A DNA stretch of 64,000 nt from Rhizomicrobium sp. (GTDB lineage Bacteria; Pseudomonadota; Alphaproteobacteria; Micropepsales; Micropepsaceae). Positions 7,194-64,000 of the stretch are shown one piece after another. The stretch covers positions 2,936 to 66,935 of the forward strand of contig DATJUS010000041.1 of NCBI GenBank assembly GCA_035502175.1. The letters are read 5' to 3'. The notes under the pieces were generated by a model. That model had not been told where the DNA came from, searched no databases, and worked only from the letters and a program-made list of their open reading frames with translations. Positions within the stretch are counted from its first letter, which is position 1; each line of letters starts with the position of its first letter. Both the position numbers and the translations under genes were made by a program.

Positions 7194-8195
7194 ATGACTT
7201 ATTTGGTGACCGGGGCAGCTGGCTTTATCGGCTTTCACACCGCCCGGCATCTGCTCGATGCGGGTGAGCAGGTGGTCGGCATCGACAACCTCAACGACTA
7301 TTATTCCGTTGCGTTGAAGACGAGCAGGCTTTCGGTTCTGCGCGAATATCCGAATTTTCGCTTTCACAAAGTCGATATCTCCGATTTCGATGCGTTGAGA
7401 AAAGCGCTCGGCAGCGAAAAAATTCGAAGGGTCGTGCATCTCGCCGCTCAGGCGGGGGTTCGCCACTCGATTCAAAATCCGCACGTTTATATGCAGGCCA
7501 ATCTCGTCGGGCACCTGAATATGCTCGAATTCTGCCGCCACCACGACGCCTTCGAGGCGATGGTCTATGCGTCCTCCAGTTCGGTCTATGGCGGCAACAC
7601 GAAGATGCCGTTTTCTGAAACCGATCGCGTGGATTCTCCGGTTTCGCTTTACGCCGCGACGAAGAAAGCCGACGAGCTGATCTCGCACACCTATTCGCAT
7701 CTCTACGGCATGCCGCTCATCGGCCTGCGCTTCTTCACGGTGTATGGACCGTGGGGGCGGCCCGACATGGCGATGTGGCTGTTCACGCAGGCGATCCTTT
7801 CCGGTAAACCGATACAGGTCTTCAATCACGGCAAGATGAAGCGCGATTTCACCTTCATCGACGACATCGTGAACGGCGTGCTGTTGATCGCCCGCGAACC
7901 GGAAAGAGGCCTGAAAGACGGTTTGAAGCATCGCGTCTACAACATCGGCAACAACAAGCCCGAAGATTTGATGCACATGATCGCCACGCTGGAGTCGGTG
8001 CTCGGCCGCGAAGCGAAAAAGGAAATGCTTCCGCTTCAACCCGGCGACGTTCCCGAAAGCTTTGCCGATATCGACGCCATCCGGCGCGACTACGGATTTC
8101 AACCGAAGACGCCGATTTCCGCCGGCATTCCGGCGTTCGTGGAATGGTATCGGCAATATGGCGCGCGCAGCCCGGAACCGGCCCGGCAGACATAG
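7194..8195 (+). CDS. NAD-dependent epimerase, UDP-glucuronate 4-epimerase-like
   Basis: GAAGFIG, VHLAAQAGVRHS, YAATKKA (YxxxK), RFFTVYGPWGRPDMA. Confidence 0.9.
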   Translation: MTYLVTGAAGFIGFHTARHLLDAGEQVVGIDNLNDYYSVALKTSRLSVLREYPNFRFHKVDISDFDALRKALGSEKIRRVVHLAAQAGVRHSIQNPHVYMQANLVGHLNMLEFCRHHDAFEAMVYASSSSVYGGNTKMPFSETDRVDSPVSLYAATKKADELISHTYSHLYGMPLIGLRFFTVYGPWGRPDMAMWLFTQAILSGKPIQVFNHGKMKRDFTFIDDIVNGVLLIAREPERGLKDGLKHRVYNIGNNKPEDLMHMIATLESVLGREAKKEMLPLQPGDVPESFADIDAIRRDYGFQPKTPISAGIPAFVEWYRQYGARSPEPARQT

Positions 8196-60738: not shown

Positions 60739-61478
60739 GATTTCCTCACCCGATGCTTGCCGCGCGTCAGCGCCACGATCATGCCGCGCAGGGTCTGCGT
60801 CTCCTGATAGGTCAGATGCGCGCGATGCAGCGTCGCGCGGATGGCGCGGATCATCGAAGACGCCTTGTCCGGCGGGAACAGGAAGCCACTGACCAGAAGC
60901 TCATTCTCGAGGTGCTCGAAGAGCTGGAACATTTCGGTACGCGTCGGCTTGCGATGGACCGCCGCGTGTTCGATGCGCGCCGATGGCGTCTCGTCTCCGC
61001 TGCGAAACCACTCATATCCGAGGAGCAGGACCGCCTGCCCGAGATTGAGCGATGAGAATTCCGAGGTTGGGATCGTAACTACCGCGTCCGCCAGCGAAAT
61101 CTCCTCATTGTCGAGACCGGCGCGTTCGTTCCCGAACAGGATGCCGGTCCTCTCACCGCGCGCGGAAGCATCGCGCAACCGCCGTGCCGCCTCGGCGGGC
61201 GTCAGCACTTCCTTGGTCGTGCCCCGGTCGCGCGCGGTGGTCGCATAAACCCGATGCAGATCGCCGAGCGCCGATTTCAGATCGCCATAGACTTCCGCGC
61301 CGCTCAGGACATCCGCGGCACCCACCGCCATGGCATCCGCCTTCGGGTTCGGAAAGGCCACGCGCGGGCTCACAAGACGCAAATCCGCCAGCGCAAAGTT
61401 CTTCATTGCCCGCGCCGTCGCACCGATGTTCTCGGCCAGTTGTGGGAACGACAGAATAATGGCTGGGGCGCTGCTCAC
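60735..61478 (-). CDS. trmJ: TrmJ/LasT-family SPOUT RNA methyltransferase
   Basis: ENIGATARAMKNF, FGNERAGL, SLNLGQAV. Confidence 0.88.
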   Translation of the reverse strand: MSSAPAIILSFPQLAENIGATARAMKNFALADLRLVSPRVAFPNPKADAMAVGAADVLSGAEVYGDLKSALGDLHRVYATTARDRGTTKEVLTPAEAARRLRDASARGERTGILFGNERAGLDNEEISLADAVVTIPTSEFSSLNLGQAVLLLGYEWFRSGDETPSARIEHAAVHRKPTRTEMFQLFEHLENELLVSGFLFPPDKASSMIRAIRATLHRAHLTYQETQTLRGMIVALTRGKHRVRKS

Positions 61479-62032
61479 TGCGTCGATTGCCTGCGCGTGA
61501 ATATGGCGCGTGTCCCGATAACGATCATCGCGAGACCCGTCAACGCGATGAGCCAGGTGGTCGCAAGAAGAATCACGTTTCTTGGTTCACCGGCGGGGCC
61601 GGGAGCTATCAGGAGAAGGGCGCCGAACGGAGTGACAACGAACAGCCCCAATAGGCCGACAATCGCTCCGGCAACTCTGCGCCAGTTGCCGCTCATAGCA
61701 CCCACCCAAAGAATAGCTGCGAACGCGAGGAGAAGGTCAGGTAGCGCAATGCCCAGAAGTACAGCTACCGGCCGTGACACACCGTCACGAGGATAGAGAC
61801 CGCTTATGGATGCGGATGCGGCTGTACATGGCGCGTGGACACACACCATATCGTAGACAGAGAAGAACCATACCCTTAGCGGCTCAGTCCGGACGGTGTG
61901 CGTTTCGGTGTAGGTGTGCACGGCGCTTACTCGTGTAACGACATGGTCTGTGGCCCACCGGACGAGCGCAAGATTGAGAACGATCGCCAGAGCGACCATG
62001 ACAACTGCGGCCTTCCAGCTTTTGCTGCGCAT
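61475..62032 (-). CDS. Hypothetical membrane protein with atypical codon usage
   Basis: About four TM helices; many A/T-ending codons; GTGA overlap with trmJ. Confidence 0.55.
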
Positions 62033-62109: not shown

Positions 62110-63321
62110 ATGGACAAGATCAAGGTTGCAAACCCGGTCGTCGAGCTCGACGGCGACGAGATGACCCGCATCATCTGGGACCTCATCAAGAAGAAGCTGA
62201 TCCTCCCCTATCTCGACATCACGCTCGAATATTACGACCTCGGCGTCGAGCATCGCGACGCGACCAAGGACCAGGTCACGGTCGATGCGGCGCACGCGAT
62301 TCAGAAGCATGGCGTCGGCGTCAAATGCGCAACCATCACGCCGGACGAAGCGCGCGTGAAGGAGTTCAACCTTCATGAGATGTGGAAGTCGCCCAATGGC
62401 ACGATCCGCAACATCCTGGGCGGCGTGATCTTCCGCGAGCCGATTATCTGCAAGAACGTGCCGCGGCTCGTGCCCGGCTGGACGAAGCCGATCGTCGTCG
62501 GCCGTCATGCCTTCGGCGACCAGTATCGCGCGACCGATTTTCGCTTCCCCGGCAAGGGCGTGCTGACGATCAAGTTCGTCGGCGAAGACGGCAAAATCAT
62601 CGAGAAGGAAGTGTTCAAGGCGCCGGGTTCGGGCGTCGCGATGGCGATGTACAACCTCGACGATTCGATCCGCGATTTCGCGCGCGCCTCGATGAATTAC
62701 GGCCTCGCGCGCAACTATCCCGTCTATCTCTCGACCAAGAACACGATTCTCAAGGCCTATGACGGCCGCTTCAAGGACATCTTCCAGGAAGTCTTCGACG
62801 CGGAATTCGCCGACAAGTTCAAGGCCGCCGGAATCATCTACGAACACCGCCTGATCGACGACATGGTCGCCTCCGCACTCAAATGGGAAGGCGGCTATGT
62901 GTGGGCGTGCAAAAACTACGACGGCGACGTGCAGTCCGACACAGTGGCGCAGGGCTTCGGTTCGCTCGGCCTGATGACGTCCGTGCTCACAACGCCGGAC
63001 GGCAAGATCGTGGAAGCCGAGGCCGCGCACGGCACGGTGACGCGCCACTATCGCGAGCACCAGAAAGGCAAGGCGACCTCGACCAATTCCATCGCCTCGA
63101 TCTTCGCGTGGACGCGCGGCCTCGCGCACCGCGCCAAGCTCGACGGCAATGCCGCGCTCGATAAGTTCGCGCATACGCTCGAGAAGGTTTGCGTCGATAC
63201 CGTCGAAAGCGGTTTCATGACCAAGGACCTTGCCCTGCTCGTCGGCCCCGATCAGAAGTGGCTGACGACCGAAGGCTTCCTCGACAAGGTCGATGAGAAC
63301 CTGAAGAAGGCGATGGGATAG
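62110..63321 (+). CDS. icd: NADP-dependent isocitrate dehydrogenase
   Basis: [44 protein letters not shown]. Confidence 0.98.
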
Positions 63322-64000
63322 TTGTCAGACGTACGGCGACACTTTCCGCATCTACTCGAGGTGCTGCCCAACGAGGGCGATGTTACTCGCGAAACGCTGG
63401 AATTGCTGTGGCGAGCGGCTCCGGAACAGGTATCGGAATTGGAGCGAGTGCTCGCTGACGGTGTCCAAGCGAGGTTGTTGAAGGGTCAGTCTCCAGTCCT
63501 CGGAGTTACATATAACGTCCTGCAGATACCTGAAGAAGTGCTGCGCCAGATCTGGCTACTAGCTCACGCTGCTTGGCATGACTTTTCGAACTTTGATGAG
63601 TTGAAAGAAAAAGGAATCGATACTCCGATCGATTCGTCACTGATCGAGGCTGCTTACACTACAGCAAAAGCCATCGCTAAGGGCTCGCAGTTTGAGTGGC
63701 CATCTGCGATTCCACGGTTTCGAGAAATTAAAGAGGGGGTCGAGGCAAAAGCAATCCGAGAGATTTTTGCTATGTCATGTGCGTGGGCAATTCTGCACGA
63801 ATTTCGCCACGCGCAATATCTGGACGATCCAGAACGACCCACCAACTCCTTTGAAGAAGAACTTGCTTGCGATCGCTACGCTGCCACTTTTTTACTATCA
63901 GAAATTTCTGCTTACTGCGCTCTTTCTAACGAAGATGAGAGTGAGGTCAGAGCAAAAAGGGCAATGGGCGCACTCGTTGGTCTTTACTTTGTCGCGCGTT
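63322..64000 (+). CDS. Lit-family (peptidase U49) phage-exclusion metalloprotease homologue, 3' partial; absent from the ORF track
   Basis: Stop-free for 226 codons from TTG 63322 (alternative GTG 63361); EIFAMSCAWAILHEFRH (HExxH at 63796-63810), EEELACDRYA, KRAMG; lower GC than icd. Confidence 0.8.
   Translation, partial: MSDVRRHFPHLLEVLPNEGDVTRETLELLWRAAPEQVSELERVLADGVQARLLKGQSPVLGVTYNVLQIPEEVLRQIWLLAHAAWHDFSNFDELKEKGIDTPIDSSLIEAAYTTAKAIAKGSQFEWPSAIPRFREIKEGVEAKAIREIFAMSCAWAILHEFRHAQYLDDPERPTNSFEEELACDRYAATFLLSEISAYCALSNEDESEVRAKRAMGALVGLYFVAR

What the first reader, a model, noticed from the sequence alone, without database searches (positions are those of the whole stretch)
63322..64000. 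Unannotated Lit-like anti-phage protease immediately after icd, echoing the e14 prophage arrangement
Seen: the icd frame continues stop-free for 226 codons to the window end, starting at TTG/GTG, which is why the track missed it. It reads ...APEQVSEL...IPEEVLRQIWLLAHAAW...EWPSAIP...EIFAMSCAWAILHEFRH...EEELACDRYAATFLL...KRAMG. GC drops abruptly from the icd level (43-48% in two 60-nt lines I counted, 62% in another). Established: E. coli Lit (peptidase U49) is an HExxH metalloprotease that cleaves EF-Tu when triggered by the T4 Gol peptide, and its prophage e14 integrates in icd. From memory, Lit has colinear segments (APEKEQDL, LEYIWAF, EIFLCAIAWILHHEISH, EEREADSHA, KRALG), and a GTG 63361 start would place APE at about the same position. 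Inference: this is the first cargo gene of an icd-targeting island carrying an abortive-infection protease in an alphaproteobacterium, with an unknown trigger and possibly an unknown substrate.
Basis: partly seen in the sequence, partly recalled or inferred. Interest (0 to 1): 0.88.

Follow-up and report, generated by a model that had tools for sequence, protein, structure and literature searches.

The report
Lone Lit-family protease gene after icd
Directly after the isocitrate dehydrogenase gene of a Rhizomicrobium-like soil bacterium lies a distant relative of the E. coli anti-phage protease Lit, but it is a single inserted gene wired into the icd operon, not the first gene of a prophage-like island.

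Summary
Window 63322-64000 is the first 226 codons of a 305-codon ORF that starts at a TTG abutting the icd stop codon. GC3 is 0.50, against 0.85 for icd. The product is a real but distant member of the Lit / Peptidase U49 family. It passes the Pfam cut-off, hits the PADLOC Lit model at 1e-15, is 28% identical to E. coli Lit, and keeps HExxH aligned. It falls far below the NCBIfam equivalog cut-off.

The island reading fails. The window and the 10 kb after icd hold no integrase, no tRNA gene, no duplicated icd 3' fragment and no mosaic icd end. The low-GC patch is this one 0.92-kb ORF, wedged between icd and a conserved GNAT-GFA pair that leads on to alaS-recA.

The closest icd relative (99% aa) has icd followed directly by GNAT, an empty site. 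Other relatives carry unrelated orphan ORFs there.

All six independent loci of this rare subfamily with upstream DNA have the gene 0-25 nt after icd. The next-nearest U49 relatives do not.

Best reading: a single-gene, latent abortive-infection-type zinc protease in a variable slot, expressed by coupling to icd. Trigger and substrate are unknown.

The parts
62110..63321 (+). icd, NADP-dependent isocitrate dehydrogenase (403 aa). It is the conserved 5' flank of the slot, and its 3' end abuts the Lit-like start codon.
   Evidence: PF00180 hit in the gene table. Relatives at 92-99% aa identity are named as Rhizomicrobium NADP-IDH. Only 25% identical to E. coli icd over 145 aa.
63319..63324 (+). 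Stop-start junction TAG|TTG: the icd stop codon followed at once by the proposed TTG start of the Lit-like gene. No intergenic DNA, promoter or terminator lies between them.
   Evidence: Sequence. The same TAA|TTGTCAGA junction occurs in L003, and TGA|TTG precedes the unrelated occupant in L009. No terminator-like site between the genes. The conserved FPHLLE segment can only be included from this start.
63322..64000 (+). Lit-family (Peptidase U49) protein gene, codons 1-226 of 305. It continues past the window end to the equivalent of position 64239 (L001 11213-12130).
   Evidence: GC3 is 0.50 against 0.85 for icd. dN/dS is 0.06 against L015.
63448..63450 (+). GTG used as the start by the metagenome gene caller (263-aa product, P0001). 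It is probably too far downstream.
   Evidence: In the alignment of the 10 full-length subfamily members (A2), invariant residues L12, E13, G19, D20, T22, E27-L29, P34 and E35 lie upstream of it.
63796..63810 (+). HEFRH, the HExxH zinc-binding and catalytic motif (H159, E160, H163). It aligns with Lit H160, E161 and H164.
   Evidence: BLASTP alignment. Invariant in all 12 aligned sequences, E. coli Lit included.
63856..63873 (+). EE-x3-D motif (E179, E180, D184). It is invariant between this subfamily and E. coli Lit (EEREAD) and is a candidate for the third metal ligand or for substrate binding.
   Evidence: Invariant columns in alignment A1. The functional role is inference.
63955..63960 (+). 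KR motif (K212, R213), invariant across this subfamily and E. coli Lit.

Best explanation
The ORF encodes a divergent Lit-family (Peptidase U49) HExxH zinc metalloprotease. It is not part of a prophage or an integrase-borne island. It is a bare 0.92-kb ORF occupying a variable slot between the stop codon of icd and a conserved GNAT-GFA gene pair in Rhizomicrobium-like (Micropepsales) alphaproteobacteria.

Shown here:
- Family membership and intact catalytic motifs.
- Strong purifying selection.
- An empty site in the closest relative, and other occupants of the same slot in further relatives.
- Absence of mobility genes and of att duplication.
- Adjacency to the icd 3' end in every locus of this subfamily that could be inspected.

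Inferred:
- With no intergenic DNA, a TTG start abutting the icd stop, and its own stop overlapping the GNAT start, the gene is co-transcribed with icd. It is probably translated at a low constitutive level by termination-reinitiation coupling.
- By analogy with E. coli Lit, the protein is a latent protease. A phage late protein bound to a host translation factor would activate it, and it would then cut that factor (EF-Tu in the E. coli paradigm) and abort the infection.

Unknown: the trigger, and whether the substrate is EF-Tu.
For: Family membership:
- PF10463 scores 29.2 and 31.3 bits, above the gathering score of 23.9.
- The PADLOC Lit model gives 1.1e-15, covering positions 16-256 of 290.
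- The NCBIfam Lit model gives 4e-22.
- BLASTP against K-12 Lit gives 28% identity over 123 aa, E = 3e-7, with HExxH, EE..D, KR and HP....R aligned and invariant.
- NCBI names the Rhizomicrobium homologue P0012 'phage exclusion protein Lit family protein'.

A functional gene: dN/dS is 0.06. The AF2 model has pLDDT 89.5.

A single-gene insert:
- The GC dip is confined to L001 11213-12130.
- blastn homology to L008 stops 5 nt before the icd stop and resumes about 50 nt into GNAT.
- Empty site: in the 99%-identical icd relative, GNAT starts on the base after the icd stop (icd ends 1322, GNAT starts 1323).
- Other occupants of the slot are orphans of 125, 78 and 216 aa.

No mobility signature.

icd adjacency: L001, L003, L004, L005, L006 (identical to L011) and L010 all have the gene 0-25 nt after icd on the same strand. 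Their downstream genes differ: GNAT, GFA, GGDEF, Rce1-like.

Coupling: the TAG|TTG junction, no terminator, and the overlapping GTGAATGA with GNAT.

Lit mechanism from the literature: Gol-bound EF-Tu is cut at Gly59-Ile60 by an HExxH zinc protease (PMC3014915). Lit is listed among defence systems that sense a capsid motif and cleave EF-Tu (PMC13581612).

Other U49 members sit in accessory slots of conjugative plasmids and in a P2-type phage Z-region.
Against: - No experiment bears on the function. Identity to Lit is only 28% and the NCBIfam score of 78.8 is far below the equivalog cut-off of 274, so substrate and trigger may differ.
- No neighbouring defence genes, and the alternative slot occupants match no defence model.
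- The subfamily was not found in viral contigs. Phage and plasmid databases hold only distant relatives.
- Fixed position, tight operon packing, and a divergence similar to the neighbouring GNAT (dN 0.148 against 0.186) also fit an old, vertically inherited operon member with a non-defence role.
- Co-transcription and translational coupling are inferred from sequence only.
Confidence: 0.6

Rival explanations
1. The gene is the first cargo gene of an integrase-borne island or cryptic prophage that targets icd, as e14 does in E. coli. An attR (a duplicated icd 3' fragment) and an integrase would lie beyond the window end.
For: A Lit homologue next to icd recalls e14, where the order is icd, ymfD, ymfE, lit, intE and so on to icdC (PMC6379469). 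GC drops abruptly at the icd stop. An empty site exists in a close relative.
Against: - The low-GC tract ends with this ORF.
- The downstream GNAT-GFA...alaS-recA block is present in relatives that lack the Lit-like gene.
- No integrase or excisionase in the 10 kb on either side of icd.
- No tRNA gene.
- No icd 3' repeat in the window or in L001.
- No mosaic icd 3' end.
- This icd is only 25% identical to E. coli icd.
- No relatives in IMG/VR viral contigs.
Confidence: 0.04
2. An old, vertically inherited member of the icd operon in Micropepsales, lost or replaced in most lineages. Its job would be a housekeeping or regulatory proteolytic function, for example processing a host protein, possibly linked to central metabolism, and not phage defence.
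For: - Same position in six independent genomes whose icd third-codon positions are only 55-74% identical to one another.
- Tight stop-start packing at both ends with no leftover foreign non-coding DNA.
- No mobility genes.
- Between L001 and L015 the Lit-like gene has diverged about as much as the adjacent GNAT (dN 0.148 against 0.186).
- Strong purifying selection.
Against: - Absent from the closest relative, and replaced by unrelated orphans in others.
- GC3 stays near 0.50 in hosts whose genes have GC3 of 0.67-0.89, which long residence should have erased.
- Pairwise Lit identity does not track icd divergence (rho -0.19, 15 pairs, weak test).
- It diverges faster than most neighbours: 43-60% identity against 57-87%.
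- Every characterised or named relative is a phage-exclusion protein.
Confidence: 0.2
3. A decaying or silent remnant: a horizontally acquired ORF that is not expressed, or that is translated only from the internal GTG 63448, and has no current function.
For: - Atypical codon usage.
- Non-ATG start.
- The gene caller chose an internal start.
- The closest homologue, on contig L015, has two in-frame stop codons in its first 22 codons.
Against: - The 305-codon frame is intact here, and full-length frames exist in five other loci.
- dN/dS is 0.06.
- Catalytic and N-terminal motifs are invariant across 43-60% identical sequences.
- The AF2 fold is confident.
- The L015 contig has 2.5x coverage, so its stop codons may be sequencing errors.
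Confidence: 0.06

Closest known systems
E. coli K-12 Lit (cell death peptidase, MEROPS U49 / Pfam PF10463; PADLOC and NCBIfam 'Lit'), carried by cryptic prophage e14
   Same: Similar length (305 against 297 aa). Colinear motifs: APE, W...W, WP, W-x3-HExxH, EE-x3-D, KR and HP-x4-R. The match passes the Pfam gathering score. It is a single-gene system. GC is lower than the host's. It lies on the 3' side of a gene called icd, on the same strand.
   Different: - Only 28% identity over the 123-aa core. The NCBIfam score is 78.8 bits against an equivalog cut-off of 274.
- Not in a prophage: no int/xis, no att duplication.
- It abuts the icd stop codon, whereas e14 lit lies 2.3 kb inside a 15-kb element.
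- The two icd genes belong to different IDH subfamilies (25% identity).
- The trigger (T4 Gol peptide) and substrate site (EF-Tu Gly59-Ile60) are untested here.
Lit-family genes on enterobacterial conjugative plasmids and in the Z-region ('lysogenic conversion' slot) of P2-type phage P2-EC46
   Same: Members of the U49 family that sit as single accessory genes in variable slots of a conserved backbone.
   Different: 25-31% identity. Those backbones are mobile elements. Here the backbone is a chromosomal housekeeping operon.
Integrase-free chromosomal variable slots ('defence hotspots') flanked by conserved core genes, as described in Pseudomonas, Vibrio and E. coli pan-genomes (cited from my own knowledge, not checked here)
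   Same: Conserved flanks (icd on one side, GNAT-GFA on the other) with alternative, unrelated, often low-GC occupants and an empty allele among close relatives.
   Different: The slot holds only one short ORF, not multi-gene systems. Only one occupant (Lit-like) matches a known defence family. Occupants are packed stop-to-start against icd, which suggests translational coupling, not self-contained cassettes.

Membership tests
Lit / Peptidase U49 (PF10463) | Significant match to the family profile above the curated threshold | tested here: met
   PF10463 scores 29.2 bits (window fragment) and 31.3 bits (full length) against a gathering score of 23.9. The PADLOC Lit model gives 1.1e-15 over model positions 16-256 of 290.
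Lit / Peptidase U49 (PF10463) | HExxH zinc-metalloprotease motif at the position of Lit H160-E161-x-x-H164 | tested here: met
   H159-E160-F-R-H163 (window 63796-63810) aligns with HEISH of K-12 Lit and is invariant in all 12 aligned sequences.
Lit / Peptidase U49 (PF10463) | Orthology-level similarity to E. coli Lit (NCBIfam equivalog NF007238, cut-off 274 bits) | tested here: not met
   61.1 bits (fragment) and 78.8 bits (full length). It is a distant family member, not an equivalog.
Lit / Peptidase U49 (PF10463) | Cleaves EF-Tu (Gly59-Ile60) only when a phage capsid peptide (Gol) is bound, which aborts the infection | not testable with these tools
   The mechanism is known from the literature (PMC3014915). 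No tuf gene lies in the window. This needs biochemistry and phage assays.
Lit / Peptidase U49 (PF10463) | Fold shared with a solved Lit-family structure | tested here: inconclusive
   The AF2 model is confident (pLDDT 89.5). No PDB chain matches by sequence or by Foldseek at E <= 1e-3, and none does in BFVD. No reference structure is available for comparison.
e14-like icd-integrating prophage or island | Integrase and excisionase at one end of the element | tested here: not met
   No recombinase domain among the called genes in the 10 kb on either side of icd. Downstream genes are GNAT, GFA, glyoxalase, MarR, SnoaL, MerR, an ion channel, alaS and recA.
e14-like icd-integrating prophage or island | Duplicated icd 3' fragment (attR, the icdC pseudogene) and a phage-derived replacement 3' end of icd (attL) | tested here: not met
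   No second copy of the last 400 nt of icd in the 64-kb window or the 21-kb L001. icd nucleotide identity to relatives shows no sharp break near the 3' end (0.88-0.95 per window against L008).
e14-like icd-integrating prophage or island | A multi-gene block of foreign composition, absent from an empty-site relative | tested here: not met
   Only one ORF (0.92 kb) is low in GC. The empty-site relative differs by that ORF alone, with icd|GNAT|GFA retained.
Chromosomal variable slot (hotspot) between conserved core genes | Conserved flanks, with alternative unrelated occupants and an empty allele among close relatives | tested here: met
   Occupants seen: Lit-like (L001, L015), a 125-aa orphan (L008), a 78-aa orphan (JGI 3300067032), a 216-aa orphan (L009), and empty (JGI 3300056388).
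Chromosomal variable slot (hotspot) between conserved core genes | Occupants are predominantly defence genes | tested here: inconclusive
   Only the Lit-like gene matches a defence model. The orphans have no significant hit in Pfam, NCBIfam, PADLOC or PHROGs.

The most novel reading that the evidence does not exclude
The 3' end of icd is a conserved, integrase-free landing and expression platform. Its C-terminal coding sequence and stop codon would serve as a ready-made translation-reinitiation site, so short foreign ORFs, among them a whole Lit subfamily found (as far as could be checked) only at this position, are repeatedly captured or swapped there and expressed by coupling to a constitutive housekeeping gene. 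A stronger version holds that the link between Lit-family proteases and icd, seen independently in E. coli e14 and here with a different IDH subfamily, is functional and not coincidental. For example, icd read-through could set the low constitutive dose that a latent suicide protease needs.
Probability: 0.15. Interest if true: 0.65.

Novelty: new member of a known kind. Interest (0 to 1): 0.4.

Why it matters
Lit is one of the oldest abortive-infection paradigms, yet it has been studied almost only in E. coli and e14.

This locus shows that a divergent Lit subfamily lives in soil alphaproteobacteria with no mobile element. It sits as a single ORF packed stop-to-start behind a housekeeping gene. 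That offers a simple natural system for two questions: how a potentially lethal protease is kept at a safe dose, here by coupling to icd, a non-ATG start and poor codons; and whether Lit relatives outside enterobacteria still target EF-Tu and sense capsid proteins.

It is also a clean example of a one-gene variable slot with empty and alternative alleles, which is useful for studying integrase-free gene turnover.

For annotation, the gene start should be moved to the TTG at 63322. The e14 analogy should not be used to infer a prophage here.

Tried and rejected
1. Search for island signatures. tRNA scan, direct and inverted repeats in L001 9900-17700, and blastn-short of the last 400 nt of icd against the window and L001 found nothing beyond chance matches of 13-17 nt.
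2. Mosaic icd 3' end. Windowed identity to four relatives shows no break.
3. Stop-codon read-through or an IDH-Lit fusion. The ORF is in frame with icd in L001, L003 and L006, but out of frame in L004, L005 and L010, so this was rejected.
4. Structure. PDB sequence search and Foldseek against PDB and BFVD gave no match at E <= 1e-3 despite a confident model. They say nothing about function.
5. Viral origin. The IMG/VR scan with the subfamily alignment found no relatives. The phage database gave one weak partial hit, P2-EC46.
6. Vertical versus horizontal history. The correlation of Lit identity with icd third-position identity was rho = -0.19, p = 0.49. Synonymous sites of the Lit-like genes are saturated, so the test is uninformative.
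7. Rfam scan of icd to GFA: nothing. The promoter and terminator scan found no more than the shuffled controls did.
8. Family assignment of the alternative slot occupants (125-aa and 216-aa ORFs): no significant hits in four libraries.
9. A tuf gene in the window, to inspect the Lit cleavage site: none present.
The structure therefore covers residues 43-305 (P0001).

Full report
**1. What is in the sequence**

icd occupies window 62110-63321 (403 aa, PF00180) and ends in TAG. From 63322 the same frame stays open for 226 codons to the window end. The window is part of a 112-kb metagenome contig (ENA ERZ27256462 k141_473407), fetched as L001; window coordinate = L001 coordinate + 52109. There the ORF is complete: 305 codons, L001 11213-12130, equivalent to window 63322-64239.

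GC falls from 0.60-0.65 in icd to 0.48-0.52. Over the whole genes, GC3 is 0.503 against 0.851 for icd.

**2. Is it Lit-like?**

Yes, at family level.
- Pfam Peptidase_U49 (PF10463) scores 29.2 bits for the window fragment and 31.3 bits for the full protein. The gathering score is 23.9.
- The PADLOC Lit model matches at 1.1e-15 over model positions 16-256 of 290.
- The NCBIfam 'phage exclusion protein Lit' model matches at 4e-22. Its 78.8 bits fall far short of the equivalog cut-off of 274.
- I fetched authentic K-12 Lit from NC_000913. BLASTP gives 28% identity over 123 residues, E = 3e-7. HEFRH (H159, E160, H163; window 63796-63810) aligns with Lit HEISH (H160, E161, H164).

In a 12-sequence alignment that includes E. 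coli Lit, the invariant columns are P34, E35, W78, W85, W126, P127, W155, H159, E160, H163, E179, E180, D184, K212, R213, H237, P238 and R243.

An AlphaFold2 model of residues 43-305 is confident (pLDDT 89.5, mostly helical). It has no match in the PDB or BFVD, so structure adds nothing on function.

**3. The start codon**

Homologues conserve FPHLLE (residues 8-13) and GD.T..ELL (19-29) upstream of both. The only canonical start upstream of FPHLLE is the TTG at 63322, the codon directly after the icd stop.

The Rhizomicrobium homologue has the same TAA|TTGTCAGA junction. In other loci the start overlaps the icd stop (L005, GTGA) or follows it by 2-12 nt.

The frame relative to icd varies between loci. 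This argues against read-through fusion and for stop-start coupling.

**4. Is it an island?**

No.
- The low-GC tract ends with the ORF.
- Its stop overlaps the start of a GNAT acetyltransferase gene (GTGAATGA), and the GNAT stop in turn overlaps the start of a GFA-family gene.
- Downstream come an orphan gene, then genes for glyoxalase, MarR, SnoaL, MerR, another glyoxalase, a cNMP-gated channel, alaS and recA.
- There is no integrase, excisionase or phage gene and no tRNA gene. There is no repeat of the icd 3' end in the 64-kb window or in L001, and no Rfam element.
- icd identity to relatives shows no 3' mosaic.
- This icd is only 25% identical to E. coli icd over 145 aa. The e14 attachment site lies within the last ~165 nt of E. 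coli icd (PMC6379469) and has no counterpart here.

**5. Relatives: an empty site and a variable slot**

icd has more than 100 relatives at 92-99% aa identity, many of them named Rhizomicrobium (lineage Micropepsales). The contexts I could retrieve are listed below.

| Locus | icd aa identity to window | Between icd and the next conserved gene |
|---|---|---|
| JGI 3300056388 (P0017) | 99% | nothing: GNAT starts on the base after the icd stop (1322, 1323), then GFA |
| L008 | 98% | 125-aa low-GC orphan, then GNAT |
| JGI 3300067032 | 98% | 78-aa orphan, then GNAT-GFA...alaS-recA |
| L009 | 97% (tblastn 96.5%) | 216-aa orphan starting TGA\|TTG, then GNAT |

blastn of L001 against L008 loses homology 5 nt before the icd stop and regains it about 50 nt into GNAT. 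The Lit-like gene is therefore one allele of a one-gene variable slot.

**6. The subfamily and its fixed address**

The subfamily is rare.
- Only 15 proteins in a 5.8-billion-protein collection match the query (46-79% identity).
- There are 2 loci among 185,579 species genomes, 2 in JGI metagenome contigs, and none in IMG/VR.

Every locus with upstream DNA has icd immediately 5' on the same strand. These are L001; L003 (= L007, a Rhizomicrobium MAG); L004; L005; L006 (= L011, a palsa MAG); and L010. That makes six independent loci. L015, the closest homologue at 79%, is cut off at its 5' end but is followed by GNAT.

The downstream genes differ among these loci: GNAT, GFA, a convergent GGDEF gene, a convergent Rce1-like gene.

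A profile search of 1.84 billion representatives finds 443 U49 relatives. The next-nearest ones I could place (P0137, P0138, P0141; 30-35% identity) are not beside icd. Other U49 members sit on enterobacterial plasmids and in a P2-type phage Z-region.

**7. History: unresolved**

For old residence followed by losses:
- The address is constant across genomes whose icd third-codon positions are only 55-74% identical.
- The packing is tight at both ends.
- Between L001 and L015 the Lit-like gene and the neighbouring GNAT have diverged to a similar degree (dN 0.148 against 0.186).

For turnover:
- The empty and alternative alleles occur in the closest relatives.
- GC3 stays at 0.49-0.57 in every copy, against 0.67-0.89 for neighbouring genes.
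- Lit identity does not correlate with icd divergence (a weak test).

The persistently low GC3 could instead reflect selection to limit the dose of a dangerous enzyme. E. coli lit also has a low GC3 of 0.275.

**8. Mechanism**

Shown: an intact gene for a U49-family HExxH protein under strong purifying selection (dN/dS 0.06).

Inferred from anatomy: co-transcription with icd and weak constitutive translation from a stop-adjacent TTG. No terminator-like site lies between the genes.

Inferred from the family: a latent zinc protease that a phage late protein activates and that cuts a translation factor to abort infection. For Lit, Gol-bound EF-Tu is cleaved at Gly59-Ile60 (PMC3014915; PMC13581612). 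Given only 28% identity, I put the EF-Tu substrate at roughly one chance in three and a defence role at somewhat better than even.

**9. How surprising is the icd coincidence?**

For a single ancestral insertion, landing next to icd is roughly a 1-in-1000 event. With hundreds of U49 lineages in varied contexts, one landing there by chance is not extraordinary; my rough estimate is several per cent. The two icd genes belong to different subfamilies, and e14 lit is 2.3 kb from the junction. I therefore treat a functional Lit-icd link as a low-probability but interesting possibility.

**10. Verdict**

- The family assignment is confirmed, as a distant member and not an equivalog.
- The island, integrase and att interpretation is refuted.
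- What remains is a new member of a known kind in an unusual, integrase-free setting coupled to icd. Interest is moderate.

Noticed in passing
L015 1-70 (ENA ERZ1505408 NODE_101266, closest Lit-like homologue, 79% aa): The N-terminal region reads RHFPHLLEVLPNEGDVTR*TL*LVWRAAPEQ, with two in-frame stop codons where this window has GAA (E24, E27). The rest of the gene is intact and under purifying selection. This could be sequencing error (coverage 2.5x), an N-terminally shortened variant starting at the GTG, or early decay.
   Followed up: partly
L008 9249-9626; L009 9213-9863; JGI 3300067032 contig 7604-7840 (no DNA): In close relatives the slot between icd and GNAT holds unrelated orphan ORFs of 125 aa (GC 0.51, low like the Lit-like gene), 216 aa (GC 0.64, start TTG directly after the icd TGA) and 78 aa. 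None matches Pfam, NCBIfam, PADLOC or PHROGs.
   Followed up: partly
window 61475-62032 (- strand): A 185-aa ORF with no Pfam hit, whose hydrophobic sequence looks like a membrane protein, lies between the SpoU-type methylase gene and icd. The 5' side of icd also varies among relatives: a 167-aa or 172-aa + strand ORF in L008 and the JGI contig, PNPOx or TraB-like genes in L005 and L009, and nothing in L003.
   Followed up: no
L001 13008-13910 (beyond the window end): A 300-aa ORF with a hydrophobic N-terminus that looks like a signal peptide, and no family hit, lies between GFA and the glyoxalase gene. Relatives have a different ~250-aa gene on the opposite strand there, so this is a second variable spot in the icd-alaS interval.
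   Followed up: no
L012, L013, L014 (more distant U49 relatives) and L002 4196-5089 (E. coli lit): In the loci checked here outside E. coli (hosts of 33-64% GC), U49 genes keep a mid-to-low GC3 of 0.40-0.57 whatever the host's GC. In the 33%-GC contig L013 the gene is richer in GC than its surroundings. E. coli lit is lower still at GC3 0.275. Composition may be constrained, or the genes may turn over quickly.
   Followed up: partly
L016 294-1295 (phage P2-EC46 Z-region ORF1, AJ512680): A 'putative lysogenic conversion protein' in the variable Z-region of a P2-type phage shares the Lit core (31% identity over residues 143-245 of the query). It is another U49 relative in a swap-slot of a conserved backbone.
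   Followed up: no
model m9a184cd772ae (residues 43-305 of the ORF): A high-confidence AF2 model (pLDDT 89.5, pTM 0.87), mostly helical with a small N-terminal sheet, has no Foldseek match at E <= 1e-3 in the PDB or BFVD. The U49 fold seems to have no solved representative.
   Followed up: partly
L003 4783-5082: In the Rhizomicrobium MAG a BrnT-type toxin gene sits between purB and radC, a position that is empty in the window's contig. It is a small accessory insertion in the same syntenic block.
   Followed up: no
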